Source: a virus (lineage: Duplodnaviria; Heunggongvirae; Uroviricota; Caudoviricetes). From it: a DNA stretch of 32,297 nucleotides. A program made the translations under genes and the position numbers. The notes under the pieces are model-generated. The model made no database searches. It was not told the DNA's origin and worked only from the letters and a program-made list of their open reading frames with translations. The DNA lies in the IMG/VR virus record IMGVR_UViG_2896589216_000003. One strand, 5' to 3'. Positions 1,242 through 32,297 of this stretch are shown here, one piece after another (the first letter of the stretch is position 1; each line of letters starts with the position of its first letter).

Positions 1242-1445
1242 TTATCGTGAGTTTTTAGTACAGATTTTTTTGGATTTACTAATAGTTCCATCATTGCAAA
1301 CAAATTTTCCATCGGAGGTACAGTGAGAGACACCTCCCTTTTTCCCAGAACAAGGATAATTTTTAGCATAGGTAGTTAGTGGGCTTAATAACAAAGAGCA
1401 TGATAAAGAGCATGATAAAACCACAAAAAATACTTTACCAAGCAT
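1242..1445 (-). CDS. small secreted cysteine-rich protein (signal peptide plus about 45-aa mature peptide with 4 Cys); moron between int and repressor
   Basis: Strong RBS GGAGGAAAC before ATG; hydrophobic N-terminus; AT-rich; perfect 12-bp tandem duplication at 1395-1418 inside the signal-peptide coding part (SCSLSCSL). Confidence 0.5.
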
Positions 1446-2403: not shown

Positions 2404-2589
2404 TTGACCATGTTTGATTACCAAGTTTCCAAACATCCATATTTTGATGAAGCCTGTCGTGCATTTGCACTGCGCCACAATCTGGTGCAACTGGCAGAAC
2501 GTGCAGGCATGAATGTGCAGATTCTGCGGAACAAGCTGAACCCAGCTCAGCCTCATTTATTAACCGCACCAGAAATCTGGCTGCTTTGA
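2404..2589 (+). pseudogene. cII-like regulator, N-terminal 61 codons only; truncated by IS911 left end
   Basis: ORF stop codon TGA (2587-2589) is the first bases of the IS911 terminal repeat TGAAGTGGCACACTG; synteny with 186-type early operon. Confidence 0.55.
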
Positions 2590-2726
2590 AGTGGCACACT
2601 GAATTTGGCCACCTGAACAGAGGTGATATGCTCACCTCAGAACAACACAGGTGCTCCAATGAAAAAAAGAAATTTTAGCGCAGAGTTTAAACGCGAATCC
2701 GCTCAACTGGTTGTTGACCAGAAATA

Positions 2727-2735
2727 CACGGTGGC
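2727..2735. repeat. 9-bp target-site duplication CACGGTGGC, left copy, of IS1 copy 1
   Basis: Identical 9-mer at 3504-3512 immediately after the IS1 right end. Confidence 0.9.
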
Positions 2736-2790
2736 GGTGATGCTGCCAACTTACTGATTTAGTGTATGATGGTGTTTTTGAGGTGCTCCA

Positions 2791-3066
2791 GTGGCTTCTG
2801 TTTCTATCAGCTGTCCCTCCTGTTCAGCTACTGACGGGGTGGTGCGTAACGGCAAAAGCACTGCCGGACATCAGCGCTATCTCTGCTCTCACTGCCGTAA
2901 AACATGGCAACTGCAGTTCACTTACACCGCTTCTCAACCCGGTACGCACCAGAAAATTATTGATATGGCCATGAATGGCGTTGGATGCCGGGCAACTGCA
3001 CGCATTATGGGCGTTAGCCTCAACACGATTTTACGTCACTTAAAAAACTCAGGCCGCAGTCGGTAA
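2791..3066 (+). CDS. insA: IS1 InsA
   Basis: 91 aa, [42 protein letters not shown]... Confidence 0.95.
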
Positions 3067-3110
3067 CCTCGCGCATACAGCCGGGCAGTGACGTCATCGT
3101 CTGCGCGGAA

Positions 3111-4604
<1,494 letters not shown>

Positions 4605-4612
4605 CCACTTCA

Positions 4613-4783
4613 ACCGGCGATGGACTGTGTCTGCTGACCAAACGGCTGGAGCGCGGCCGCTTCGCCTGGCCGTCAGCCCGGGATGGCAAAGTGTTCCTCA
4701 CACCGGCACAGCTGGCGATGCTCCTTGAAGGTATCGACTGGCGGCAGCCTAAAAGACTGCTTACGTCCCTGACTATGTTGTAA
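4613..4783 (+). pseudogene. IS66-family tnpB, C-terminal fragment
   Basis: Begins directly at the IS911 right end with no start codon of its own. Confidence 0.7.
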
Positions 4784-4831
4784 GCCTCTTTATCCTGGTC
4801 GACGCTGAATGAGCCTGGTAATATACCCGGT

Positions 4832-6369
4832 ATGAGCAGCTCACTTCCTGACGATATCAATGCACTGAAACGTCTCCTTGCCGAACAGGAGGCGCTGAAC
4901 CGTGCCCTGCTGGAAAAGCTGAACGAGCGTGAACGCGAAATAGACCATCTGCAGGCACAGCTGGATAAGCTGCGCCGGATGAACTTCGGCAGCCGCTCCG
5001 AAAAAGTCTCCCGTCGTATCGCACAGATGGAAGCTGACCTGAAGGCACTTCAGAAAGAAAGTGATACCCTTACCGGTCGGGTTGACGACCCGGCCGTGCA
5101 GCGCCCGCTGCGTCAAACCCGCACCCGCAAACCGTTCCCCGAATCACTCCCCGCGATGAAAAACGGCTGCTGCCGGCAGCGTCATGCTGCCCGGAATGTG
5201 GAGGCTCACTGAGCTATCCGGGTGAGGATGCCGCCGAACAGCTGGAGTTGATGCGCAGCGTCTTCCGGGTTATCCGGACTGTACGTGAAAAGCATGCCTG
5301 TACTCAGTGCGATGCCATCGTGCAGGCCCCCGCGCCTTCACGGCCCATCGAGCGGGGTATCGCAGGACCGGGGCTGCTGGCCCGCGTGCTGATCTCAAAG
5401 TATGCAGAGCACACCCCGCTGTACCGCCAGTCTGAAATGTACGGCCGCCAGGGCGTGGAGCTGAGTCGTTCACTGCTGTCGGGCTGGGTGGATGCATGCT
5501 GCCGGCTACTGTCACCGCTGGAAGAAGCGCTTCAGGACTATGTGCTGACTGACGGTAAGCTCCATGCTGATGACACGCCTGTCCCGGTGCTGTTGCCAGG
5601 CAATAAGAAAACGAAGACCGGGCGGTTATGGACCTACGTTCGTGACGACCGTAACGCCGGGTCAACGCTGGCGCCGGCGGTGTGGTTCGCTTACAGCCCG
5701 GACAGAAAAGGCATCCATCCGCAGACCCATCTTGCGGGGTTCAGTGGTGTACTGCAGGCGGATGCATACGCCGGGTTCAACGAGCTGTACCGGGATGGCC
5801 GGATAACGGAAGCCGCCTGTTGGGCTCACGCCCGCCGTAAAATCCACGATGTGCACGTTCGCACCCCGTCAGCCCTGACGGAGGAAGCGCTGAAACGGAT
5901 CGGCGAACTGTACGCCATCGAGGCAGAGATAAGGGGAATGACGGCGGAGCAGCGCCTTGCCGAACGTCAGTTGAAAACGAAACCGCTGCTGAAATCCCTG
6001 GAAAGCTGGCTGCGTGAAAAGATGAAAACCCTGTCGCGACACTCAGAACTGGCGAAAGCGTTCGCATACGCCCTGAACCAGTGGCCGGCGCTGACGTACT
6101 ATGCAGATGATGGCTGGGCTGAGGCGGACAATAATATCGCTGAAAATGCGTTGCGGATGGTCAGTCTGGGCCGCAAAAACTACCTGTTCTTCGGTTCGGA
6201 TCATGGAGGAGAGCGGGGAGCGCTGCTGTACAGCCTGATCGGGACGTGCAAACTGAACGGAGTGGAGCCAGAAAGCTACCTCCGCTATGTACTTGACGTC
6301 ATAGCCGACTGGCCGATAAACCGGGTCGGCGAACTGCTCCCCTGGCGCGTAGCACTGCCGACTGAATAA
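4832..6369 (+). pseudogene. IS66-family transposase TnpC, frameshifted at the C-run 5149-5152
   Basis: ORF 4832..5212 ends ...[16 protein letters not shown]; the other frame continues [23 protein letters not shown]... straight into ORF 5248..6369. Confidence 0.8.
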
Positions 6370-6407
6370 CACATCCCCGTCAATACGGTTCTTGCTGCAC
6401 GCTTACC

Positions 6408-7304
6408 ATTGACGGGCGTGGTCTGGCTGGCGAGATCAGCAAGGAAACGGGTAAATCCCTGCGTGATAACGCTGAATACGTTAATCCCTGGGCGTCTCTG
6501 CATCGTGTTCAGCAATTCCGCTTCTTTGGTATTCCAGGGCGTCAGGCTTACCGTGAACTGCGGTTGTTGGCTGGTCAGGCGGCAAGGCAGCAGGGTGACA
6601 AAAAAGCAGGTGCGCCGGTACTGGATAACCCGCGCCTTGATGCCATCCTGGCTGCTGCTGATGCTGGCTGTTTTGCCACCTACATTATGAGGCAGGGCGG
6701 CGTGCTGGTTCCTCGCAAATATCACTTGATCAGAACCGCTTATGAAATCAATGAAGAGCCGACCGCCTATGGCGATCACGGTATTCGTATTTATGGCATC
6801 TGGTCACCCATTGCAGAAGGCAAGATCTGCACTCATGCAGTGAAGTGGAAAATGGTTCGTAAAGCCGTTGACGTTCAGGAGGCGGCAGCCGACCAGGGCG
6901 CTTGCGCCCCTTGGACTCGTGGCAATAACTGTCCCCTTGCTGAAAATTTGAACCAACAGGAGAAAGATAAATCAGCTGATGGGAACCCCAGAACGGACAT
7001 TACCAGCATGGATGACAAGGAGTTGCACGATTACCTGCACAGTATGAGCAAAAAAGAGCGCCGGGAACTGGCAGCAAGGTTACGCCTGGTGAAACCGAAA
7101 CGGCGTAAAGACTACAAACAGCGAATTACAGACCATCAGCGACTGCAGCTCGTGTATGAGCTGAAGTCCAGAGGATTTGATGGCAGCGAGAAAGAGGTCG
7201 ATTTACTCCTTCGCGGAGGCAGTATTCCGTCAGGAGCAGGCCTGCGTATCTTCTATCGGAACCAGCGTTTGCAGGAAGATGATCAGTGGCGGAACCTGTA
7301 TTAA
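6408..7304 (+). pseudogene. phage early-region protein, C-terminal fragment, 5'-truncated by the IS66-family element (by synteny probably the replication gene A-type protein)
   Basis: Reading frame is open from the IS end with no start codon; lies between the early region and the tum-like cassette. Identity not verified. Confidence 0.35.
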
Positions 7305-7396: not shown

Positions 7397-7411
7397 GGTA
7401 ATGACTCCAAC

Positions 7412-7915
7412 TCACTGATAGTGTTTTATGTTCAGATAATGCCCGATGACCTTGTCATGCAGCTCCACCGATTTTGAGAACGACAGTGACTTCCGTCCCA
7501 GCCTTGCCAGATGTTGTCTCAGATTCAGATTATGTCGCTCAATGCGCTGAGTGTAACGCTTGCTGATAACGTGCAGCTTTCCCTTCAGGCGTGATTCATA
7601 CAGCGGCCAGCCATCCGTCATCCATACCACGACCTCAAAGGCCGACAGCAGGCTCAGAAGACGCTCCAGTGTGGCCAGAGTGCGTTCACCGAAGACGTGC
7701 GCCACAACCGTCCTCCGTATCCTGTCATACGCGTAAAACAGCCAGCGCTGACGTGATTTAGCACCGACGTAGCCCCACTGTTCGTCCATTTCAGCGCAGA
7801 CAATCACATCACTGCCCGGTTGTATGCGCGAGGTTACCGACTGCGGCCTGAGTTTTTTAAGTGACGTAAAACCGTGTTGAGGCCAACGCCCATAATGCGT
7901 GCACTGGCGCGACAT
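7412..7915 (-). CDS. insB: IS1 InsB frame (variant isoform)
   Basis: Identical to the copy-3 InsB ORF. Confidence 0.9.
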
Positions 7916-8109
7916 CCGACGCCATTCATGGCCATATCAATGATTTTCTGGTGCGTACCGGGCTGAGAGGCGGTGTAAGTGAACTGTAGTTGCCATGTTT
8001 TACGGCAATGAGAGCAGAGATAGCGCTGATGTCCGGCAGTGCTTTTGCCGTTACGCACCACGCCTTCAGTAGCGGAGCAGGAAGGACATCTGATGGAAAT
8101 GGAAGCCAC
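7834..8109 (-). CDS. insA: IS1 InsA (variant isoform)
   Basis: [37 protein letters not shown]... Confidence 0.9.
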
Positions 8110-8164
8110 GCAAGCACCTTAAAATCACCATCATACACTAAATCAGTAAGTTGGCAGCATTACC

Positions 8165-8234: not shown

Positions 8235-8423
8235 ATGCAGGACTATTTTTTGGAGTCTTTGAAGCTCCAGCGCATTGATTTTTTTCTTAAGCTTGTAGCG
8301 GCTAGTGAGTGTAGTGATGAAGAGAAGGGGCTGGCTCTGCAGTGGGTTTCTGAATTGACTGATGAACTCATGGCAAAAATCAGAACCCACGAATACAACC
8401 GCTCAATGGATGTCATCAGCTGA
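8235..8423 (+). CDS. small protein, first gene of the SOS-controlled cassette (possible antirepressor N-part, Tum-like by position)
   Basis: ATG 8235 preceded by AGGAGG; 62 aa; the longer upstream start (8151) would overlap the IS1 end and LexA box. Confidence 0.5.
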   Translation: MQDYFLESLKLQRIDFFLKLVAASECSDEEKGLALQWVSELTDELMAKIRTHEYNRSMDVIS

Positions 8424-8433
8424 GGTGACTTTT

Positions 8434-8667
8434 ATGCGCATTGAAATAATGATCGATAAAGAGCAGAAGATTAGCCAGTCTACCCTGGACGCTCTTGAAT
8501 CCGAGCTTTACCGCAATCTGCGCCCTCTGTATCCCAAAACGGTAATTCGTATCCGCAAAGGTAGCTCTAACGGTGTGGAACTTACCGGATTGCAACTGGA
8601 CGAAGAAAGAAAACAAGTGATGAAAATTATGCAGAAGGTGTGGGAAGACGACAGCTGGCTGCATTAA
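8434..8667 (+). CDS. DinI-family protein (186 Tum C-domain-like)
   Basis: MRIEIMIDKEQKISQSTLDALESELYRNL...KQVMKIMQKVWEDDSW aligns with DinI (MRIEVTIAK...DALAGELSRR...ILQETWESADDW); RBS GAGG before ATG 8434. Confidence 0.75.
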   Translation: MRIEIMIDKEQKISQSTLDALESELYRNLRPLYPKTVIRIRKGSSNGVELTGLQLDEERKQVMKIMQKVWEDDSWLH

Positions 8668-8802
8668 GAAACGTTGCTGGCGTCTGAACTAGCTTCTGGC
8701 GTCAGCAAGGTTGAACAACGAGCCCTTGCGAGGCGTTAGCTCTGTAGTGCATGTCTATGCCGCATGAGATCGCATGATCGTTTGAGGATCGTTTTTGCTA
8801 AG

Positions 8803-8827
8803 GCCCGCCAGAACTGGCGGGCTTTTG
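8803..8827 (+). terminator. rho-independent terminator after the DinI-like gene
   Basis: GCCCGCCA-gaac-TGGCGGGC stem followed by TTTTG. Confidence 0.65.
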
Positions 8828-8889
8828 CGTAGATCATGCAGGTGCATGAAAACCACTACATAAAGCGGGCAGGCGTGGCGGGGATACGA

Positions 8890-8917
8890 TTGCGCGCTAG
8901 GTATAAGTGTGTAAAAT
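8890..8917 (+). promoter_or_regulatory. candidate sigma70 promoter for the ATPase/HNH module
   Basis: TTGCGC ... TG-adjacent TAAAAT about 40 bp upstream of ATG 8960; weak, by eye only. Confidence 0.25.
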
Positions 8918-8959
8918 AATTCCAAAATAAATCATCACTAATGAAGTGAGAGGGTAATA

Positions 8960-10609
8960 ATGTTAGTCAAGAAAAATAAAAATTATAGTTTATATTTTTT
9001 AATTACAAATAATCAACAGATATCTGATTCTGGTAATTATATAAAAATAGTCCCATCAAGAAGCGATTGGAATGATTTTGGATATTTGAGTAGAGTCGAA
9101 ATATCTATTTTTAATAAAAAAGAGTGTAAGGATATAATTTCACTGAATGGTTATATTGGTTTTTTGAATTCAGAGGAGGAACGAAATGGAAAAGCAGAAC
9201 TGATAAGGCGAGTGAAAAAAAAGGAAGAATCTAATTTAAAGGATGAGGGGTTTAATGATTATTTTGTCATGCTTCAGGATATGAATAATTATCGAAGACT
9301 AGTAAGATTTTTTGGGGTGAATGAATCCAAATATATATTAAATTTCATTAATGATGTTGTTTCTAAGAAAAGTGACGCTAGTGCAGAGAATTTGAGGAAA
9401 AAAGCAATCTCTTCTGATATCTTTAATAAATCTTTCATTAGAGAGTCTGAGTCGTATTTTACTTTCAAAAATGCAGGAACAGTTCTTTCCGGTATTCAAT
9501 ATGAGGAGTTGGGTAATTTATCACAGCACATCAAGATTAGCTATTCGAATAAAGTTAATGAAGAAGATGTATCTTATGTTTTTAATTTTGATCACGAGCA
9601 TGATTTACCAAAAAGAATTTCCATAATTATAGGCGAGAATGGTGTAGGAAAAAGCCAAACGCTTAGAGAAATCGCATTGGCTGCGATTAAAGGAAAGGAT
9701 AATTTGGTGGCTGTAGTTGATTCTAACGGTGTGAGCATTGAAGAACGAATTCAAATTAGTAGGCTCATTGCTTTTTCTCCAACAAATGAAAGTAAGTGTT
9801 CATTTCCAACCGATAAAAGAATAAAATCATTGATATGGTACAAAAGATTGACTTTAAATCGTGAATCAAAATCCAAATTAAACTTGAATGATTTAATAGT
9901 GCAACTAGCGAGGAGTAACGACGCTATCGGCTATAATCAAAGGTGGAATATATTTGTTGATGCACTGAGTGTTCTAAATAGTAACAACGATTTAGTAATC
10001 AAATGTGGCGGTGAAAATTCACCATTTGTTAAATTAAATGAGCTTAATTCTCGAGGCGAAGAATCTAGACTATCATTATATTCTGAAATTATTCTCTCTG
10101 GCGAGCCTTTGAGGCTTATTGAAAATAAATGTTACCCTTTGAGTAGTGGGGAAATATCGTTTATTAAGTTTTGTGTACAAGTTTGTTTGTATATTGAGAA
10201 TGGGACTCTTCTATTAATAGATGAGCCAGAAACACATCTCCATCCTTCATTTATTAATAAATTTATGGCATTGCTTGATAATTTATTAGAAAAGACAGGC
10301 TCTTCAGCTATCATAGCAACGCATTCGGTTTATCTTGTTCGGGAGGTTTTTAAGGAGCAAGTGACAATACTCAGAAGACGAGATGATGGGGTAATTGTTA
10401 GCGAAAAACCGAGATTGAGTACTTTTGGGGCGAATATAGGAAATATCTCATATTTTGTTTTCGGTGAGAGTGAACCAACTCAAATTTTAAATAAAGTAAA
10501 AAACAATATAATTGCAAAGAATATGTCTTGGGATGATGTTGAATCTAAATATAGCGAGGACTTATCACTTAATGTATTAACTGCGTTGAGAAATGAAATG
10601 GGCAATTGA
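8960..10609 (+). CDS. ABC/OLD-type (AAA_21-like) ATPase with about 215-aa N-terminal domain of unknown function; candidate defence protein
   Basis: 549 aa; Walker A GENGVGKS (aa 225-232), signature-like LSSGE (394-398), Walker B/D-loop LLLIDEPETHLHP (417-429), H-loop ATHS (453-456); RBS GAGAGGG; strongly AT-rich. Confidence 0.8.
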   Translation: MLVKKNKNYSLYFLITNNQQISDSGNYIKIVPSRSDWNDFGYLSRVEISIFNKKECKDIISLNGYIGFLNSEEERNGKAELIRRVKKKEESNLKDEGFNDYFVMLQDMNNYRRLVRFFGVNESKYILNFINDVVSKKSDASAENLRKKAISSDIFNKSFIRESESYFTFKNAGTVLSGIQYEELGNLSQHIKISYSNKVNEEDVSYVFNFDHEHDLPKRISIIIGENGVGKSQTLREIALAAIKGKDNLVAVVDSNGVSIEERIQISRLIAFSPTNESKCSFPTDKRIKSLIWYKRLTLNRESKSKLNLNDLIVQLARSNDAIGYNQRWNIFVDALSVLNSNNDLVIKCGGENSPFVKLNELNSRGEESRLSLYSEIILSGEPLRLIENKCYPLSSGEISFIKFCVQVCLYIENGTLLLIDEPETHLHPSFINKFMALLDNLLEKTGSSAIIATHSVYLVREVFKEQVTILRRRDDGVIVSEKPRLSTFGANIGNISYFVFGESEPTQILNKVKNNIIAKNMSWDDVESKYSEDLSLNVLTALRNEMGN

Positions 10610-11474
10610 AATGAATAAATTAAAAAGACCTGTTTTTAAAGATTATTCTGCATTTAAAAAACTATCTGCAAATAAGAGATTAAAACATCATTCTGTTCTG
10701 AATGGACAGGATACATTTATACTTAATGCATATAGATCGTACATAAAGAATAAAGGGTATCTTAATGTCAATTCTTGTGGCGTATTGAGTAACAATATTG
10801 CTGAAGCTTTGAGATATTATTATAACAATCCCGCAAAGTGTTTATCTATAATTGATGATATAAGAGCAGCTAATTCTAACTCTCTATGTCCAATGTGTGG
10901 TTCAATGCATAGCGGGACTTTGGATCATGTTTTACCCAAGGAAAACTATCCAGAATTTTCTTTATTCACTAAGAATTTGGTTCCTGCTTGCAAATGTAAT
11001 ACTTTCAAAAGTACTACTATAGCTAATTCTGCAGGCCATCGGATGCTGCATCCATATTTTGATAATATATTAAAACAAAGATTAATATGTGCTAATTTTT
11101 CTAAATTAGGGCGAACACCTACAATTGATGTAAAAATCATAATTGACCCAATGTCACCAGAATATAACAATGTTAAGTATCATCTTGATAATGTTGTTAT
11201 CAAGAATAATATTAAGGGGTATTTGTCTGAACAATGGGAGTCGTTTTACTTATATCCTGAGCTTGTTATTAGAGGACTGAATAAGAGTCTTTCTACTTAT
11301 AGCGATGTATATGAGTTGTTGACTCGCGAGTTGTTGCTGTTGGATGAAAAACATAAAGGTAAAAATAATTGGAATTCGGTTTTTGTAGCTGGGTTAATTC
11401 GACCTGATGTGATTAGGTGGATACTCTGTGAATTACATTTAGGTAACAGAAGTCCAGACGGTCGTCTCATATGA
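10593..11474 (+). CDS. HNH / His-Me-finger nuclease-like protein, partner of the ATPase
   Basis: CPMC-x8-DH-x20-CKCN ... H-x3-H (aa 99-153); overlaps the upstream gene by 17 nt (alternative in-frame ATG at 10611); same AT-rich composition. Confidence 0.7.
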   Translation: MKWAIEMNKLKRPVFKDYSAFKKLSANKRLKHHSVLNGQDTFILNAYRSYIKNKGYLNVNSCGVLSNNIAEALRYYYNNPAKCLSIIDDIRAANSNSLCPMCGSMHSGTLDHVLPKENYPEFSLFTKNLVPACKCNTFKSTTIANSAGHRMLHPYFDNILKQRLICANFSKLGRTPTIDVKIIIDPMSPEYNNVKYHLDNVVIKNNIKGYLSEQWESFYLYPELVIRGLNKSLSTYSDVYELLTRELLLLDEKHKGKNNWNSVFVAGLIRPDVIRWILCELHLGNRSPDGRLI

Positions 11475-11484
11475 TTTTTTGCAT

Positions 11485-11510
11485 CTTCAGCGTGTATCTG
11501 CACGCTGAAG
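11485..11510. repeat. perfect 10-bp inverted repeat (CTTCAGCGTG-tatctg-CACGCTGAAG) in the AT-rich spacer between the HNH gene and portal end; cos-proximal region
   Basis: Seen directly; T6 run upstream, A-rich downstream; not a canonical terminator in either direction. Confidence 0.4.
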
Positions 11511-11581
11511 AAATTCATAAAAACTGCTGCCTATTAATAAATTTTTTTAGCTGAGTTAAAGAACCTCATTTAGTGATTACG

Positions 11582-12615
11582 TTAAGTAGCTAGTTTATAA
11601 CTATCAAATTTAACAATGTTCTCACTTACCAATTTATTTATTTCCATCATTCTTTTTTGTAACGGTATTAACTCGTTACGTACAAACACCAGGCTCGCCT
11701 TCTCCACATCCCCAAACCCCCGACATTATTAGGCATAATCCCCATCATTTGCGGTGGCACACGATGCGCCGCCATCATGTCATCCCGGCTCACGTTCTTG
11801 ATGTTCAGAAACTCATCCTTCGCCGCGACTTCTGACAACGGGATGATCTGAAGCCCGTCCTTTTTGCCGTTAGGCGAGTACATAAACAGATTGCGGAAGT
11901 TACCTGGTCCTTTGGCGCTTTTCATCGCATTGCGGAGGTTGTTCACATCCTCCTGGTTTTGCGCGGCATCGGTCATGTACATGATGAAGCCTGCATGACT
12001 GCCGTTAATGTAATACTATCGGCGGAACAGCGTGGCGGACTCGTTGAGCAGGGCTGACGGAATGGCAGAAAGGTAACCTGGCAGGCCGTAGATCTCTTGG
12101 TTGATGTCCGGTTCCATCAGATGAAAGATGCTTCCTTTCGTGAACTGATACGGCTGCGTGGTCATGCCGTATTGCACAAACCAGTAGGTATCCAGGTCTA
12201 ATCCGCGTCGGGTGTATTTTGCCAGAGCAGGCTCAAGAGCGATGACCTCTCCGAACCGGTTTGTGCGTTTCTCCAGGTAAGCGTTACCAAATACCAGATA
12301 ATCCTGCACAAAACGTGAAAAAGCCTGCTGGCTGAGCAGCGGGTGAGGGATGTAGGTACTGATCAGAATGTTGCATTTCACCGCAATTGGTGAACTGTGA
12401 TGCACGGCGGCGCGGAAGGTGCGCGCCAGTCCGTCAAAACTCACTGGCGGCTCATACCAGCGATCTGTCTGTACGCATTCCACATAGTCCAGTAGTTCAC
12501 GGCGGTCCAGAACCGGAACGGGATCGCCGAAGCTGAATGCTTCGGCTGAAGTCTGGTTTTTATGCTGGGTCTGTTTCGTCGCCGCAGCGCGGTTCTTCTT
12601 ACTCTTTCCCATCAA
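11582..12615 (-). pseudogene. Q: portal protein (P2 gpQ-like) with in-frame TAG (12016-12018) and a 1-bp frameshift near 11714-11716
   Basis: N-part ...LNESATLFRR then TAG, continuing in the same frame (LYINGSHAGFIMY...); C-terminal ...PNNVGGLGMWRRR* shifts frame, the other frame gives GDVEKASLVFVRNELIPLQ... to stop at 11582. Confidence 0.8.
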
Positions 12616-17178: not shown

Positions 17179-17625
17179 ATGAAGTTTGTTGCGCCAGAAC
17201 AGGCACCGGAACAGGCGGAAATCATTAGAAATACGCCGTTCTGGCCTGATGTGGACCTGTCGGAGTTTCGCAGTGTCATGCGCACTGACGGCACGGTGAC
17301 GCAGCCGCGTTTAAAGTAGGTTGCACTGTCGGCAATTTCGGAGGTTAACGCAGAGCTGTATGAATTTCGCAGACGCCAGCAGATGCTGGGGTATGCGTCG
17401 GAACAGCTGGACGGGAAAAGTGAGCGCATTCAGCACTATTTCAACGCGGTTTACTGCTGGGCTCGCGCCATGCTCAACGAACGTTTCCAGGACTATGACG
17501 CCACGGCATCCGGTGCGAAGCGGGGCGAAGAACTGGCGGAAGCAAGCGGTGATTTGTGGCGTGACGCCCGCTGGGCCATCAGCCGGGTGCAGGACGCGCC
17601 GCACTGCACAGTGGAGCTTATCTGA
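17179..17625 (+). pseudogene. L: head completion/stabilisation protein (P2 gpL-like) with in-frame TAG at 17317-17319
   Basis: ATG 17179 with AGGAG RBS; ...VTQPRLK then TAG then VALSAISEVNAELYEF... in the same frame, ending ...RDARWAISRVQDAPHCTVELI. Confidence 0.75.
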
Positions 17626-19871: not shown

Positions 19872-20265
19872 ATTGCAGAAGGTGGACGACTGGCTGAGTG
19901 CATTATTGGCGAATCTGGAGCCAGCCGCAAGAAGCCGCATGATGCGCCAGCTGGCGCAGGAACTGCGCCGGACACAGCAGCAGAATATCAGGATGCAGCG
20001 CAATCCAGATGGCAGCAGTTATGAGCCGCGCAGGGTAACAGCACGCAGCAAAAAGGGGCGCATCAAACGTCAGATGTTTACAAAGCTGCGCACCACAAAA
20101 TACCTGAAAACTGCAGCCAGCGCCGATTCTGCCAGCGTACAGTTTGAAGGTAGGGTGCAGCGCATTGCCCGTATTCACCATTACGGCTTGAGTGATCGCG
20201 TCAGTCGAAAAGGTATTTATACCATCTATGCGAAAAGGCAGTTATTAGGTTTTAATGTCCGGTAA
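19864..20265 (+). pseudogene. S: tail completion protein, P2 gpS-like, 3'-truncated by IS1 copy 3
   Basis: Stop codon TAA (20263-20265) is formed by IS1 terminal bases; ...YAKRQLLGFNVR*. Confidence 0.7.
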
Positions 20266-20315
20266 TGCTGCCAACTTACTGATTTAGTGTATGATGGTGA
20301 TTTTAAGGTGCTTGC

Positions 20316-20591
20316 GTGGCTTCCATTTCCATCAGATGTCCTTCCTGCTCCGCTATTGAAGGCGTGGTGCGTAACGGCAAAAGAACTGCCGGACATCAGC
20401 GCTATCTCTGCTCTCATTGCCGTAAAACATGGCAACTACAGTTCACTTACACCGCCTCTCAGCCCGGTACGCACCAGAAAATCATTGATATGGCCATGAA
20501 TGGCGTCGGATGTCGCGCCAGTGCACGCATTATGGGCGTTGGCCTCAACACGGTTTTACGTCACTTAAAAAACTCAGGCCGCAGTCGGTAA
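20316..20591 (+). CDS. insA: IS1 InsA (variant isoform)
   Basis: [37 protein letters not shown]... Confidence 0.9.
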
Positions 20592-21013
20592 CCTCGCGCA
20601 TACAACCGGGCAGTGATGTGATTGTCTGCGCTGAAATGGACGAACAGTGGGGCTACGTCGGTGCTAAATCACGTCAGCGCTGGCTGTTTTACGCGTATGA
20701 CAGGATACGGAGGACGGTTGTGGCGCACGTCTTCGGTGAACGCACTCTGGCCACACTGGAGCGTCTTCTGAGCCTGCTGTCGGCCTTTGAGGTCGTGGTA
20801 TGGATGACGGATGGCTGGCCGCTGTATGAATCACGCCTGAAGGGAAAGCTGCACGTTATCAGCAAGCGTTACACTCAGCGCATTGAGCGACATAATCTGA
20901 ATCTGAGACAACATCTGGCAAGGCTGGGACGGAAGTCACTGTCGTTCTCAAAATCGGTGGAGCTGCATGACAAGGTCATCGGGCATTATCTGAACATAAA
21001 ACACTATCAGTAA
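20510..21013 (+). CDS. insB: IS1 InsB frame (variant isoform)
   Basis: 167-aa ORF identical to that of copy 2. Confidence 0.9.
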
Positions 21014-21023
21014 GTTGGCAGCA

Positions 21024-21560
21024 TTACCATGCAGCCCTCACAATATAGTTAAAAGCGACATTTCGTGGGCGTGTTTCATTCGCACCTGCAGGTTTAGTCG
21101 TTGCCGCAACAACACCACCCTCTGTAATAGCCGGGTTGGGAATTGGGTAATTATCGAAGTCAATGGCCGGAGACAGGGGCGTGATTTGTTTTAAAATCGT
21201 GGTGCCTGTAAAACTTTCCAGAGTCTGGTCGTTAGTTCGTGAAGTCCAGATTCCCCAATAGTGGTTATGACTGACAATCGCACCGTCCTGAAGCGTTAAT
21301 AATCCCCTTCCGTTATCCACTCCACGTCCGTCATCCCAGCCACGAATAAACTCACCGCGTAAATCAGGCAATTTATTTGTCGGGTAAGCCTTTGCCAGTT
21401 CCGGGTATTCTTCAGCAGAAAAAGCCGCACCATTGCATTTCAGCCAGCCTGTCGGCGGAGTGGCTGAAGGCCACGGAACAGGCACACCAACAGGTAATGC
21501 AGAGCCTTCTCCCAAACCAACGTTTAAGAAAATGCAGAGATAATGGCTAACTGGCATCAT
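21024..21560 (-). pseudogene. tail-fibre variable C-terminal cassette (inverted-orientation segment of a Gin/Pin-type shufflon), truncated by IS1 copy 3
   Basis: ...PVGVPVPWPSATPPTGWLKCNGAAFSAEEYPELAKAYPTNKLPDLRGEFIRGWDDGRGVDNGRG... conserved tail-fibre junction motif; ORF begins at the crossover-like site and runs into the IS1 end. Confidence 0.65.
21507..21532. promoter_or_regulatory. gix/hix/cix-like 26-bp imperfect palindrome: candidate invertase crossover site
   Basis: TTCTCCCAAACCAACGTTTAAGAAAA resembles gix (TTATCCAAAACCTCGGTTTACAGGAA); sits at the 5' end of the tail-fibre cassette next to the invertase gene. Confidence 0.5.
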
Positions 21561-21587
21561 CCCAGGTTTTTATTCAGGGGATTGATC

Positions 21588-22154
21588 ATGCTTATTGGCT
21601 ATGTACGCGTGTCAACAAATGACCAGAACACCGATTTGCAACGTAATGCACTGAACTGCGCGGGATGTGAGCGGATTTTTGAGGATAAAATCAGTGGCAC
21701 TAAGCCCGACAGACCGGGGCTTAAAAAACTGCTCAGGACACTATCGGCAGGAGACACGCTGGTTGTCTGGAAGCTGGACAGACTGGGACGCAGTATGCGG
21801 CATCTTGTTACGCTGATAGAAGAGTTGCGCCAGCGTGGTGTGAATTTCCGAAGCCTGACTGACAGTATTGATACCAGTACCCCAATGGGCCGTTTCTTTT
21901 TTCACGTCATGGGGGCTCTGGCTGAAATGGAACGTGAACTGATAGTTGAACGTACCAGAGCAGGGCTGGCTGCAGCTCGTGCCAAAGGCAGAGTAGGTGG
22001 ACTCCGTCCTAAGTTGACCACCGAACAGTGGGCACAGATTGGACGTTTACTCGAGGCCGGAGAATCAAGACAGCGTATTGCACTGATTTTTGATGTGGGC
22101 GTTTCTACCATTTATAGAAAATTTCCGGCGAATGAGAGCAATGAATCGCCCTGA
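21588..22154 (+). CDS. serine DNA invertase (Gin/Hin/Pin/Cin family)
   Basis: MLIGYVRVSTNDQNTDLQRNAL...LVVWKLDRLGRSM...SLTDSIDTSTPMGRFFFHVMGALAEMERELI... near-identical in pattern to Gin. Confidence 0.9.
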   Translation: MLIGYVRVSTNDQNTDLQRNALNCAGCERIFEDKISGTKPDRPGLKKLLRTLSAGDTLVVWKLDRLGRSMRHLVTLIEELRQRGVNFRSLTDSIDTSTPMGRFFFHVMGALAEMERELIVERTRAGLAAARAKGRVGGLRPKLTTEQWAQIGRLLEAGESRQRIALIFDVGVSTIYRKFPANESNESP

Positions 22155-29443: not shown

Positions 29444-29529
29444 CGCTGCCGCCATTTTGTCGCCATCGTTAAAAAACAGTGCTTCTAACATCATGATTTT
29501 AAAAGGCATAAATTTCAGACAACAAAAAA

Positions 29530-29566
29530 CCCATCAACCTTGAACCGAAATGGCGGGGTTGATGGG
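29530..29566 (-). terminator. rho-independent terminator downstream of ybjL (minus-strand sense)
   Basis: CCCATCAACC ... GGTTGATGGG 10-bp stems with a 17-nt loop, followed on the minus strand by a T6 run. Confidence 0.5.
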
Positions 29567-29678
29567 CTCCACAAAATGGGGACATCAAAGAAAAGCAGTG
29601 GCACTAATTAAGACTGATGCCCTGCGGAAAAGTTCTGCGGTTGTGCAAAAAAATTTCATTTTCAGGGCAACTTCAGTT

Positions 29679-31364
29679 TTATCCTAATCCTGGCCATACC
29701 ATGACGATGATTGTCCCTGCCAGCGTCAGCAGGACGTTGGCGATTGCGTAGGTGCCCGCATAGCCCAGCGCAGGGATGTTACTGCGAGCTGTATCACTGA
29801 TGATCTCCATTGCCGGCGCGCAGGTGCGTGCGCCCATCATTGCGCCGAACAACAGTGCGCGGTTCATTCGCAATACATAAGCACCGAACAAGAAACAGAT
29901 AACCACGGGCACAAGACTGACAATTAATCCGGCAATCAACATCTGACCGCCAATCGCGGCCAGGCCGTTATTAATACCGCTACCGGCGCTCAGACCAACG
30001 CCTGCCATAAACACCATCAAGCCGAACTCTTTCACCATGCTTAATGCACCTTGCGGAATGTAACCGAAGGTCGGGTGGTTAGCACGCATAAAGCCCAGCA
30101 TAATTCCGGCGAATAACAACCCGGCAGCGTTCCCCATGCCGAAACTGAATGTGCTGAACTGGAAGGTGATCATCCCGATCATCAGCCCAATAACAAAGAA
30201 GGCGCAAAATGCCAGCAGGTCAGTGACCTGGCTGTGAATCGAGATAAAGCCGATGCGATCGGCAATGGTTTTTACGCGACGGGCATCACCGCTGACTTGT
30301 AAAACGTCACCTTTGTTAAGCACGACGTTGTCATCTATCGGCATCTCAATCTGGCTACGAATGACGCGGTTAAGGAAGCAACCGTGATCGGTCAACTTCA
30401 GTTGTGCGAGACGTTTACCTACAGCGTTATGGTTTTTAACGACCACTTCTTCAGTGACGATACGCATGTCGAGAAGGTCACGATCGAAAACTTCTTTACC
30501 GTTACGGAAGCTGGGATCGAGTCGGGCATGGGCGTCGGGATAGCCTACCAACGCTATTTCATCGCCCATTTGTAGCACGGCATCACCGTCTGGATTTGCC
30601 AGAATCCCGTTACGTCGAATACGTTCAATGTAGCAGCCGGTTTGTCGATAAATACCCAGTTCACGCAGATTTTTGCCGTCGGTCCAGGCCACCAGCTCCG
30701 GGCCGACGCGATAGGCGCGGATCACCGGTAAATAAACCTTACGGTTGGCATCAGTGTCCAGGCCACGTTCGCGGGCGATTTGCTGGGCGCTGGTCTGTAA
30801 GTCCTGATGCTGCAATTTCGGCAAGTAACGCGCACCAACAATCAAACTCACCAGACCGATTAAATAGGTTAAGGCATACCCGAGGCTCAGATTATCCAGT
30901 GCCAGTGAGAGCTGCCTGCTTTCCATGCCGGAATGACGCAGTGTATCGCCAGCACCGACCAGAACCGGTGTCGACGTCATAGAGCCTGCTAACATACCGG
31001 CCGTCAGGCCAATATCCCAGCCAAACAGCTTACCTAACCCTAAGGCGATCACCAGCGCACTGCCAACCATCACCAGTGCTAACATTAGGTAATTTTTCCC
31101 ATCGCGAAAAAAAATGGAAAAAAAGTTCGGTCCGGCTTCGACCCCGACGCAGAAAATAAACAGCATAAAGCCAAGATTAAGCGCATCGGTGTTAATGCTG
31201 AAATGTTGTTGGCCTAATAACAGCGATACGACTAAAACGCCAATGGAATTACCCAGTTGGATCGAACCAAGTCGTAACTTTCCGAGACATAGCCCAAGCG
31301 CGAGGACCACAAATAATAACAGAATGTAATTCCCATTTAACAATTCGGCGACGTTTATATTCAC
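29679..31364 (-). CDS. ybjL: putative transport protein YbjL (AAE-family transporter with TrkA-C domains); host gene
   Basis: 561 aa, [33 protein letters not shown]...; recognised as enterobacterial YbjL. Confidence 0.9.
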
Positions 31365-31633
31365 GGAGGCTAACTTCTTGTTTACTAGTAAGCTGTTGAA
31401 AGAAATGGTAATTTACGATAATGTTTTTTACCAGAATTCAGGGCGCAGATTCATTCAGCGCACCTAAACGATAGTAAAGTAACAATGTATTTTACTAGTG
31501 TAATCACATTAGGTATCAACGGCTATATGAATTGCGTTGGCCTATATTAGCATGGAATGCGAAGCGGCTTTATCTTACTGAACGCCACACTGGCGAAAAA
31601 TGTGTTCGATAGACGCAGTGTCAGGAGGAACGA

Positions 31634-32010
31634 GTGAAACATAAACAACGTTGGGCAGGGGCAATCTGCTGTTTTGTCCTCTTCATTGTGGTGTGCCTTT
31701 TTCTGGCGACGTACATGAAAGGCGCTTTTCGGGCTGCCGGGCATCCTGAAATCGGCTTGCTGTTTTTCATTCTTCCTGGAGCAGTTGCCAGTTTCTTTTC
31801 ACAGCGTAGAGAAGTCCTGAAACCTCTATTTGGCGCAATGCTGGCGGCACCCTGTTCAATGCTCATTATGCGGCTGTTTTTTTCACCGACGCGCTCATTC
31901 TGGCAAGAGCTGGCATGGTTACTAAGCGCGGTGTTCTGGTGTGCGCTGGGGCACTGTGTTTCTTATTTATCAGTAGTTTGTTTAAACCACAGCACAGAAA
32001 AAATCAGTAA
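31634..32010 (+). pseudogene. ybjM: inner-membrane protein YbjM with apparent 1-bp deletion in the G-run 31948-31951 (run-on ORF to 32167 otherwise)
   Basis: After ...FWCALG the alternative frame reads ALCFLFISSLFKPQHRKNQ* (hydrophobic, stops at 32008-32010 just before a hairpin); the annotated frame runs 128 bp into convergent grxA. Confidence 0.55.
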
Positions 32011-32029
32011 AGCCCTCAACGCGAGGGCT
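32011..32029 (-). terminator. hairpin between convergent ybjM and grxA (likely grxA terminator, possibly bidirectional)
   Basis: AGCCCTC-aacgc-GAGGGCT, followed on the minus strand by a T-rich tract. Confidence 0.5.
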
Positions 32030-32039
32030 TGTCAGACGA

Positions 32040-32297
32040 TCAGGCGTCCAGATTTTCTTTCACCCATGCAGCAAAATCGGTATAGCCGCCGATATGTTGC
32101 TGATCGACAAAAATCTGCGGCACGGTTTCTACGGGTTTACCTGCCTTTTGTGGTAGATCTTCTTTAGTGATCCCTTCCGCACGAATATCTACATACTGAT
32201 ACTGAAAATCATCGCGTTCATTGCTCAATTTCTCAGCCAGATCTTTTGCACGCACACAGTAAGGGCAACCCGAACGACCAAAAATAACGGTTTGCAT
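32040..32297 (-). CDS. grxA: glutaredoxin 1
   Basis: 85 aa, MQTVIFGRSGCPYCVRAKDLAEKL..., CPYC active site; start codon is at the window end. Confidence 0.9.
   Translation of the reverse strand: MQTVIFGRSGCPYCVRAKDLAEKLSNERDDFQYQYVDIRAEGITKEDLPQKAGKPVETVPQIFVDQQHIGGYTDFAAWVKENLDA

What the first reader, a model, noticed from the sequence alone, without database searches (positions are those of the whole stretch)
8900..11680. Sharp compositional island (AT-rich, A/T-ending codons) embedded in a GC-rich prophage
By eye the segment from about 8.9 to 11.7 kb is dominated by A/T runs and AAA/AAT/ATT codons, whereas the DinI-like gene upstream and portal/terminase downstream are GC-rich. A second small AT-rich patch is the secreted-peptide gene at 1242-1445. 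This marks recently acquired cargo distinct from the phage backbone. I did not compute GC values.
Basis: seen in the sequence. Interest (0 to 1): 0.5.

Follow-up and report, generated by a model that had tools for sequence, protein, structure and literature searches.

The report
Septu-like defence cassette in P2 hotspot
The AT-rich island is real: it is a two-gene ATPase-plus-nuclease cassette, most likely an anti-phage defence system, sitting in the already described cargo hotspot next to the DNA-packaging site of P2-like prophages, so it is an ordinary, already catalogued feature.

Summary
Observation confirmed. Window 8898-11655 has GC 0.316 against 0.530 elsewhere, and GC3 0.25-0.26 against 0.55-0.69 in backbone genes. 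Comparison with relatives gives a sharp left edge at 8897/8898 and a graded right edge at about 11632-11655.

The island is a translationally coupled two-gene operon. The first gene (8960-10609) encodes an ABC-type ATPase. The second (10611-11474) encodes an HNH nuclease whose closest solved folds are PtuB nucleases of Septu and retron-Septu. PADLOC's best match is the candidate system PDC-M01, followed by Septu PtuA.

The cassette starts 8 bp after the cos cohesive end, between cos and the portal gene. That is inside the published gpA-gpQ defence hotspot of P2-like phages (Rousset et al. 2022). The same protein pair is system #155 in their Table S5B, untested and commented "NLR-like"; my data contradict that comment.

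Other cargos at this site, including P2 tin-old, also have GC 0.33-0.35, so low GC does not show recent acquisition.

The surrounding prophage is a dead remnant with four IS1 copies or fragments, IS3- and IS66-family elements, and stops in the integrase, portal and gpL genes. The cassette is intact and its family is under purifying selection (dN/dS about 0.1).

Verdict: already known, low interest.

The parts
8797..8828 (+). GC-rich hairpin followed by TTTTG, downstream of the DinI-like gene. It is a probable intrinsic terminator that would insulate the cassette from early-operon transcription.
   Evidence: Inverted repeat I3, 15-nt arms, 87% complementary. Conserved in all five aligned relatives. 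The terminator role is inferred.
8872..8890 (.). cos cohesive-end sequence GGCGTGGCGGGGATACGAT, followed by the conserved TGCGCGCT (8891-8898).
   Evidence: Corresponds to the annotated cosL of P2, GGCGAGGCGGGGAAAGCAC followed by TGCGCGCT. Conserved in all relatives up to the breakpoint.
8898..11655 (+). Variable AT-rich cargo segment (GC 0.316) in the cos-to-portal sub-site of the P2 gpA-gpQ hotspot.
   Evidence: Homology to relatives with other cargo ends at 8897 and resumes at 11632-11655. Composition. No flanking direct or terminal inverted repeats.
8950..8954 (+). Shine-Dalgarno-like GAGGG, 5 nt upstream of the ATPase start codon.
   Evidence: Read directly from the sequence.
8960..10609 (+). 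549-aa ABC-type ATPase (PDC-M01A / PtuA-like). An N-terminal domain of about 218 aa with no family match precedes the ABC core.
10611..11474 (+). 287-aa PtuB-like HNH nuclease (PDC-M01B). Its start lies 1 nt after the ATPase stop, which implies translational coupling. The mechanical ORF start at 10593 is not used by most homologs.
11484..11511 (.). Perfect 12-bp stem-loop between the convergent HNH and portal genes. It is a probable transcript-end or stabilising structure and lacks a T-tract.
   Evidence: MFE -20.8 kcal/mol, z = -4.8, 0 of 200 shuffles as stable. Function inferred.
11585..12612 (-). Portal (gpQ) pseudogene that bounds the island. About the last 17-24 codons lie inside the variable AT-rich segment.
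   Evidence: tblastn against the intact UPEC portal gives two frames and one in-frame stop. There is a 1-nt deletion at 11717 and a substitution at 12018. The gradual loss of identity at the 3' end is shown.

Best explanation
The island is a horizontally exchanged two-gene anti-phage cassette of the Septu type, carried as non-essential cargo in the cos-proximal hotspot of a P2-like prophage.

Shown:
- It lies between the cos cohesive end and the portal gene, where related phages carry other cargo.
- It encodes an ABC-type ATPase, followed 1 nt later by an HNH nuclease with a PtuB-like fold.
- The pair is conserved and adjacent across Proteobacteria, inside and outside prophages.
- Both genes evolve under strong purifying selection.

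Inferred by analogy with characterised Septu and retron-Septu PtuAB:
- The ATPase oligomerises and holds the HNH subunit through its C-terminal region.
- The complex stays inactive in uninfected, ATP-replete cells.
- An infection cue, possibly read by the uncharacterised N-terminal domain of about 218 aa, releases the nuclease.
- The nuclease then cleaves host or phage nucleic acid (tRNA-Tyr or DNA in the characterised systems), which stops phage multiplication at the cost of growth arrest.

The low GC reflects the AT-rich gene pool that circulates through such hotspots by recombination in the conserved flanks. It does not date the insertion.
For: Location:
- The cos motif at 8872-8890 matches P2 cosL. 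The cargo starts 8 bp after it and ends inside the portal 3' end.
- This is the gpA-gpQ hotspot described in PMC9122126. The same two proteins are listed there as Table S5B system #155, with 12 occurrences.

Identity:
- PADLOC best hits are PDC-M01A at 3e-55 and PDC-M01B at 1e-33, then PtuA at 1e-31 across nearly the full length of the ATPase.
- Other authors found that PDC-M01 calls duplicate Septu calls (PMC11811056).
- The ATPase family has invariant Walker A, ABC signature LSSGE, Walker B and H-loop motifs.
- The HNH family has invariant CxxC...DH...N...CxCN...H residues.
- hhalign of B against a curated Septu PtuB gives probability 93%, E 2.6e-7.

Module conservation:
- The genes are adjacent, in the same order, with gaps or overlaps of 1-8 nt in Cupriavidus (beside SIR2+HerA), Providencia and a Scandinavium P2-like prophage.
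- dN/dS is 0.089 for the ATPase and 0.108 for the HNH gene.

Mechanism precedent:
- Septu needs the PtuA Walker A/B and PtuB H-N-H residues and cleaves the tRNA-Tyr variable loop (PMC13096335).
- The EcSeptu complex is 6:2 PtuA:PtuB, its nuclease is inhibited by ATP, and PtuB binds the PtuA C-terminal domain (as summarised in PMC12640716).
Against: - No experiment on this pair was found.
- Similarity to solved or curated Septu proteins is confined to the catalytic cores. PDB sequence hits to PtuA are marginal (E 1.7e-3) and absent for PtuB.
- The NCBIfam PtuA equivalog scores 41 bits against a cutoff of 500.
- Walker A lies at residue 225, behind a domain of about 218 aa, whereas the Walker A lysine of Septu Ec-B88 PtuA is K43.
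- No convincing promoter was found upstream, so expression is unproven.
- In this window the cassette's intactness among 5-9 prophage lesions is compatible with chance (P 0.45-0.64).
Confidence: 0.68

Rival explanations
1. It is an NLR-like (STAND NTPase) sensor with a nuclease effector, as commented in the published catalogue. The ATPase would oligomerise on binding a phage protein, like Avs/NLR systems.
For: Rousset et al. Table S5B annotates system #155 as 'AAA_21/AAA_15/AAA_25/NB-ARC | HNH_5 ... [quoted passage not shown] Pfam gives sub-threshold NACHT, nSTAND and NTPase5 hits.
Confidence: 0.04
2. It is a restriction-like ATPase-HNH enzyme that recognises and cuts incoming phage DNA directly, with no abortive or tRNA-targeting step. 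That would resemble restriction-associated AAA ATPases more than Septu.
For: The best NCBIfam hit is TIGR04435, 'restriction system-associated AAA family ATPase' (1.3e-20). Stand-alone EcSeptu is reported to nick plasmid DNA (PMC12640716). HNH nucleases are commonly DNases.
Against: The TIGR04435 hit scores 73.6 bits against a cutoff of 300 and covers only residues 392-506. No methyltransferase or specificity gene is adjacent in any of the four contexts examined. The B fold is closest to PtuB, not to restriction HNH enzymes.
Confidence: 0.15
3. It is a selfish or phage-serving element rather than a defence system. It could be an HNH homing or packaging endonuclease placed next to cos, portal and terminase, as in HK97-like phages, or an addiction (toxin-antitoxin) module that stabilises the prophage.
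For: The HNH gene lies within 2.6 kb of cos and next to the portal and terminase genes. Pfam names AAA_21 'putative AbiEii toxin, Type IV TA system'.
Against: Related P2-like phages have the same cos, portal and terminase but lack the cassette. The pair also occurs outside prophages, in Cupriavidus and Providencia chromosomes. The ATPase and HNH genes always travel together. The island has no flanking repeats or homing-site signature.
Confidence: 0.04
4. In this genome the cassette is silent, functionless baggage. It would be an unexpressed AT-rich insert in a dead prophage that happens not to have been hit by mutations yet.
For: The prophage is heavily degraded. The chance that 5-9 lesions miss a 2.5-kb target is 0.45-0.64. 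No scored promoter lies upstream. AT-rich foreign DNA is commonly silenced in enterobacteria (general knowledge, not tested here).
Against: The ATPase and HNH proteins are 99.8% and 100% identical to those of the intact UPEC prophage. The exact sequences recur on 694 and 995 contigs. The family-level dN/dS is about 0.1.
Confidence: 0.09

Closest known systems
cos-proximal gpA-gpQ defence hotspot of P2-like phages (Rousset et al. 2022, PMC9122126), Table S5B system #155
   Same: The flanks are the same (DinI-like gene, cos, portal gpQ). The two protein sequences match those listed as #155, and the near-identical UPEC ATPase WP_112048222 appears in Table S5A. Relatives carry different cargo at the site.
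   Different: The catalogue calls it 'NLR-like', whereas the ATPase is ABC-type. In P2 itself the cargo (tin, old) lies on the gpA side of cos, while here it lies on the portal side, 8 bp after the cohesive end. The system was not among those the paper tested.
Septu (PtuA ABC ATPase + PtuB HNH nuclease; Doron et al. 2018; EcSeptu structures 8EE4/8EE7; Septu Ec-B88, PMC13096335)
   Different: Structure-based identity is only about 14-15% for B and 15-18% for A. The ATPase has an extra N-terminal domain of about 218 aa before Walker A, whereas the Walker A lysine of Ec-B88 PtuA is K43. B is 287 aa against about 200-250 aa for PtuB chains. The trigger and the substrate are unknown.
PADLOC candidate system PDC-M01 (unpublished candidate set of Payne et al. 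2021)
   Same: Both proteins match PDC-M01A and PDC-M01B best, over nearly their full length, and the genes are adjacent.
   Different: PDC-M01 is a bioinformatic candidate with no described mechanism. Its calls overlap Septu calls in other genomes (PMC11811056).
Type I-A retrons / retron-Septu (Retron-Eco7/Ec78, Eco4/Ec83)
   Different: No reverse transcriptase ORF lies in or beside the island or beside the homologous pairs examined. Rfam finds no RNA-family match in the island. The NCBIfam retron PtuA equivalog scores 41 bits against a cutoff of 500.
P2 Old (ABC ATPase fused to a TOPRIM nuclease), the classical cargo of this hotspot
   Same: It belongs to the same hotspot, is also AT-rich (0.341), and follows the same logic of an ABC ATPase coupled to a nuclease. 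An OLD-family structure appears among the ATPase's PDB sequence hits (6p74).
   Different: Old is a single polypeptide with a TOPRIM nuclease, encoded on the other side of cos and on the opposite strand. Here there are two proteins and an HNH nuclease.

Membership tests
P2-like cos-proximal (gpA-gpQ) hotspot cargo | Lies between the replication gene gpA and the portal gene gpQ, adjacent to cos. | tested here: met
   The gpA remnant ends at 7301, cos is at 8872-8890, the cargo spans 8898-11655 and the portal spans 11585-12612.
P2-like cos-proximal (gpA-gpQ) hotspot cargo | Conserved flanks with unrelated gene content among related phages. | tested here: met
   Flanks are 95-98% identical in 813R9, p13P477T-2 and 4LV2017, each with different cargo. 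The left flank is in 1281 E. coli genomes and the island in 3.
P2-like cos-proximal (gpA-gpQ) hotspot cargo | The gene arrangement is listed in the published hotspot catalogue. | tested here: met
   Both sequences are found in Table S5B, row 155, of PMC9122126.
Septu (PtuA/PtuB) | Adjacent, co-oriented ATPase gene followed by an HNH nuclease gene. | tested here: met
   The genes span 8960-10609 and 10611-11474 with the junction TGAAATG. The same arrangement is seen in three distant loci.
Septu (PtuA/PtuB) | PtuA is an ABC/SMC-type ATPase with Walker A and Walker B motifs that are essential for defence. | tested here: met
   Walker A, LSSGE signature, Walker B and H-loop are invariant, and the fold is ABC-type. 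Whether the motifs are essential was not testable.
Septu (PtuA/PtuB) | The ATPase matches PtuA family models. | tested here: inconclusive
Septu (PtuA/PtuB) | PtuB is an HNH nuclease with the catalytic H-N-H residues and the PtuB fold. | tested here: met
Septu (PtuA/PtuB) | PtuA and PtuB assemble into a complex (6:2 in EcSeptu) whose nuclease is inhibited by ATP. | not testable with these tools
   This needs co-expression and purification, or a multimer prediction.
Septu (PtuA/PtuB) | Confers resistance to phage infection. | not testable with these tools
   No published test of this pair was found.
PADLOC PDC-M01 | Adjacent genes matching the PDC-M01A and PDC-M01B HMMs. | tested here: met
   3.2e-55 (residues 27-539) and 1.2e-33 (residues 8-270); these are the best hits for both proteins.
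NLR-like / STAND NTPase defence proteins | A STAND NTPase domain (NACHT / NB-ARC) above the family threshold. | tested here: not met
Type I-A retron (retron-Septu) | A reverse transcriptase gene and an msr/msd ncRNA adjacent to PtuAB. | tested here: not met
   The island holds only the two ORFs. The only Rfam gathering-threshold hit in the window is RybB, which is elsewhere. No RT lies next to the homologous pairs. A novel ncRNA would not be detected by Rfam.
Phage packaging HNH (HK97-type terminase-associated) | An HNH required by, and co-inherited with, the terminase/portal module. | tested here: not met
   Relatives share the portal and terminase at 95% identity but lack the HNH gene. The HNH family also occurs in non-phage contexts with the ATPase.

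The most novel reading that the evidence does not exclude
The PDC-M01 clade is not simply 'another Septu'. Its conserved N-terminal domain of about 218 aa, which has no Pfam match and did not align to any solved structure, could be a new infection sensor. That would give the ATPase-HNH pair a trigger or substrate different from characterised Septu. Its placement 8 bp from the left cohesive end, with the portal's C-terminal codons swapped along with it, could reflect a specific cassette-exchange route at the cos-to-Q sub-site.
Probability: 0.2. Interest if true: 0.45.

Novelty: already known. Interest (0 to 1): 0.2.

Why it matters
It matters little beyond bookkeeping. The finding is a textbook instance of an AT-rich defence cassette in the P2 cos-proximal hotspot, and the exact gene pair is already in a published catalogue and in PADLOC's candidate models.

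Three small points add value:
- The catalogue's 'NLR-like' label should read ABC ATPase plus PtuB-like HNH, that is, Septu-like.
- The cargo lies on the portal side of cos, unlike P2's tin and old.
- The cassette is widespread in Shigella-named assemblies, inside a dead prophage, so it is a cheap and untested candidate for a phage-resistance determinant in Shigella.

Tried and rejected
- Megablast of the island against the phage collection found no match.
- A profile search of the ATPase family against the PDB returned only UvrA.
- Pfam found nothing for the ATPase N-terminal 218 aa, even at E = 10.
- The promoter scan found no more sites than shuffled sequence, and none just upstream of 8960.
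- I looked for flanking direct or inverted repeats that would indicate transposition or site-specific insertion and found none.
- I asked whether the cassette's intactness in a decayed prophage shows selection; it is not significant (P 0.45-0.64).
- Li et al. 2024 (PMC12318543) could not be read, so its results are cited only as summarised in PMC12640716.
- The literature search by protein accession returned nothing.
Full report
**1. The observation**

- The sliding-window profile shows GC falling from about 0.45-0.47 (8251-9000) to 0.30-0.35 across 8751-11750, then recovering to 0.53 by 11751.
- Using homology breakpoints as limits (8898-11655), the island has GC 0.316 against 0.530 for the rest of the window. 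No other 2.76-kb window falls below 0.435, giving z = -6.6.
- The two ORFs inside have GC3 of 0.260 and 0.252, and 74-75% of their codons end in A or T. The corresponding figures are 0.55-0.69 and 31-45% for DinI, terminase, gpO, gpN, gpM, the sheath gene and gpD.
It encodes a 67-aa Cys-rich protein with a hydrophobic N-terminus.
The backbone is about 53% GC, so 'GC-rich' is only true in relative terms.

**2. What is in the island**

- There are two + strand ORFs: 8960-10609 (549 aa) and 10593/10611-11474 (293/287 aa).
- Most homologs of the second protein start at the MNK... methionine, which places its start at 10611, 1 nt after the first gene's TGA (TGAAATG).
- A GAGGG Shine-Dalgarno sequence precedes 8960.
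- A conserved GC-rich hairpin followed by Ts lies upstream, after the DinI-like gene (8797-8828).
- A very stable hairpin follows the second gene (11484-11511; -20.8 kcal/mol, z = -4.8).
- No promoter could be called with confidence.

**3. The ATPase (549 aa)**

- PADLOC's best hits are PDC-M01A at 3e-55, then PtuA at 1e-31 across residues 32-535.
- Pfam gives AAA_21 (3e-16) and AAA_15, plus sub-threshold hits to NACHT, nSTAND and similar models that cover only the P-loop.
- An alignment of 33 homologs has an invariant Walker A (G225xNGxGKS232), ABC signature (L394SSGE398), Walker B (D421EPExHLH428) and H-loop (T454HS).
- Only about 210-245 residues align in those hits, and the N-terminal 218 residues have no Pfam match.

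**4. The nuclease (287 aa)**

- PADLOC gives PDC-M01B at 1e-33. Pfam finds nothing significant.
- The family alignment has invariant C93, C96, D105-H106, N122, C127, C129-N130 and H147. This is the HNH pattern with a four-cysteine zinc site.
- The model has pLDDT 87.3 and pTM 0.86.
- hhalign against a PtuB that Rousset et al. labelled Septu gives probability 93%, E 2.6e-7, over the HNH core. Similarity to a second PtuB and to a PtuA is weaker.

**5. The pair is a conserved module**

- Homologs of both proteins occur at 40-80% identity across Gamma-, Beta- and Alphaproteobacteria.
- The genes are adjacent, in the same order and tightly spaced in three loci: Cupriavidus, beside SIR2+HerA; Providencia, in a chromosomal context; and a Scandinavium P2-like prophage at the same hotspot.
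- No reverse transcriptase is adjacent in any of these loci. The only Rfam gathering-threshold hit in the window is RybB, which lies elsewhere.
- Between the window and the Scandinavium copy, dN/dS is 0.089 for the ATPase and 0.108 for the HNH gene. This is comparable to the terminase (0.062) and the capsid gene (0.129).
- The cassette's dS (1.14-1.26) is about twice the backbone's (0.64-0.66), so the cassette and the backbone have separate histories.

**6. Where the island sits**

- Alignment with P2-like relatives that carry other cargo places the left breakpoint at 8897/8898. The right breakpoint is at 11632-11655, inside the last codons of the portal gene.
- The P2 reference record starts with cosL GGCGAGGCGGGGAAAGCAC followed by TGCGCGCT. 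The window has GGCGTGGCGGGGATACGAT followed by TGCGCGCT at 8872-8898.
- The cargo therefore begins 8 bp after the cohesive end, on the portal side. In P2 the cos-to-Q interval is only 167 bp, and the cargo genes tin and old lie on the gpA side of cos.
- No repeats flank the island. That fits cassette exchange by recombination in the conserved flanks.

**7. Comparison with what is known**

- Rousset et al. 2022 described the gpA-gpQ, cos-proximal region of E. coli P2-like phages as a defence hotspot, with 1,650 gene arrangements (PMC9122126).
[quoted passage not shown] Table S5A lists WP_112048222, the near-identical ATPase of the UPEC prophage.
- The system was not among those they tested, and I found no paper that cites the accessions.
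- PDC-M01 is an unpublished PADLOC candidate whose calls overlap Septu calls (PMC11811056).
- PHROGs has both proteins as families of unknown function.
- My data contradict the 'NLR-like' label and support a divergent, stand-alone Septu-like system.
- Characterised Septu and retron-Septu systems need the PtuA Walker motifs and the PtuB HNH residues. They form PtuA-PtuB complexes through the PtuA C-terminal domain and are reported to be inhibited by ATP. Depending on the system, they cleave tRNA-Tyr, ssDNA or plasmid DNA (PMC13096335 and PMC12640716). I infer the mechanism here by analogy with those systems.

**8. Is the cargo 'recently acquired'?**

The evidence does not show that it is.
- Cargos at the same hotspot in four other elements, and P2's tin-old, have GC 0.33-0.35 against 0.51-0.55 for their backbones. 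The Providencia homolog pair has GC 0.28.
- Island and flanks differ from the UPEC copy by 0.33% and 0.26% respectively.
- The island is rare in complete E. coli genomes: 3 of 5426 carry it, against 1281 that carry the left flank.
- The exact proteins nevertheless occur on 694 and 995 contigs, mostly named Shigella.

**9. The surrounding prophage is a dead remnant**

Compared with the intact UPEC prophage, the window shows the following lesions.
- IS1, IS3-family and IS66-family elements at 2587-6404 replace everything from mid-CII to gpA residue 505.
- An IS1 of 768 bp with a 9-bp target duplication sits at 7397-8164.
- A further IS1 lies at about 20260-21030. It truncates gene S and is followed by only a tail-fibre fragment and an invertase before the sheath gene.
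- The integrase has an in-frame stop (position 431). The portal has a stop (12018) and a 1-nt deletion (11717). gpL has a stop and an 18-bp deletion (17399).
- The cassette proteins are 99.8% and 100% identical to the UPEC ones. Escaping 5-9 random lesions has probability 0.45-0.64, so this alone does not prove selection.

**10. Verdict**

The feature is real and sharply bounded, and its explanation is ordinary. It is a Septu-like ATPase-HNH defence cassette in the known P2 cos-proximal hotspot, already catalogued but never tested. Novelty: already known. Interest: about 0.2. The residual novelty lies in the uncharacterised N-terminal domain of the ATPase and in the untested function.

Noticed in passing
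window 2587-6404: A pile of insertion sequences replaces the prophage early region from mid-CII to about gpA residue 505. It comprises IS1 (InsA plus the DDE_Tnp_IS1 domain, about 2791-3488), an IS3-family element (3490-4604) and an IS66-family element (4832-6369, 99.4% identical to copies in Stx2 phages). The prophage therefore cannot replicate.
   Followed up: yes
window 7397-8164: A 768-bp IS1 insertion with a 9-bp target-site duplication, relative to the UPEC prophage, lies between the gpA remnant and the small gene upstream of DinI.
   Followed up: yes
window 20260-22154: Another IS1 transposase ORF (20510-21013) truncates gene S. The baseplate and tail-fibre genes (V, W, J, I, H) appear to be missing. 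What remains before the sheath gene is a minus-strand tail-collar fragment (21024-21560) and a resolvase/invertase gene (21543-22154).
   Followed up: partly
window 431; 11717 and 12018; 17179-17622 with 17399: There are point lesions relative to the intact UPEC copy: an in-frame stop in the integrase, a stop plus a 1-nt deletion in the portal gene, and a stop plus an 18-bp deletion in gpL. I could not distinguish true pseudogenisation from sequencing error, but together with the IS load it fits a Shigella-type genome.
   Followed up: partly
window 11585-11655: The last 17-24 codons of the portal gene lie inside the AT-rich variable segment and differ among relatives. It appears that the portal's C-terminal tail is exchanged together with the cargo.
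   Followed up: partly
window 8665-8749; L004 1089-1934; P2 (L009 2185-4881): The hotspot has a second sub-site on the gpA side of cos. It is empty here, holds about 845 bp in Klebsiella phage 4LV2017, and holds tin and old in P2. Some E. coli hits to the left flank are also split by about 700 bp at this position.
   Followed up: partly
window 1242-1445 (- strand): A small AT-rich ORF between the integrase and the CI repressor encodes a 67-aa Cys-rich protein with a signal-peptide-like N-terminus. It carries a 12-bp in-frame duplication (SCSL repeated to give SCSLSCSL) relative to the UPEC copy. It has no Pfam match.
   Followed up: partly
window 29521-29599 (- strand) and 29679-32167: RybB sRNA (Rfam, 105 bits) lies just outside the prophage right end, followed by an Asp-Al_Ex/TrkA_C permease gene and ybjM. 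In the UPEC genome the other side of the prophage is rcdA. The element is therefore integrated in the rcdA-rybB-ybjL region.
   Followed up: no
L005 863-3897 (Cupriavidus): The homologous ATPase-HNH pair sits directly beside a SIR2 + HerA defence pair, in a region whose GC (about 0.56-0.58) matches that of the pair. This looks like a defence island.
   Followed up: no
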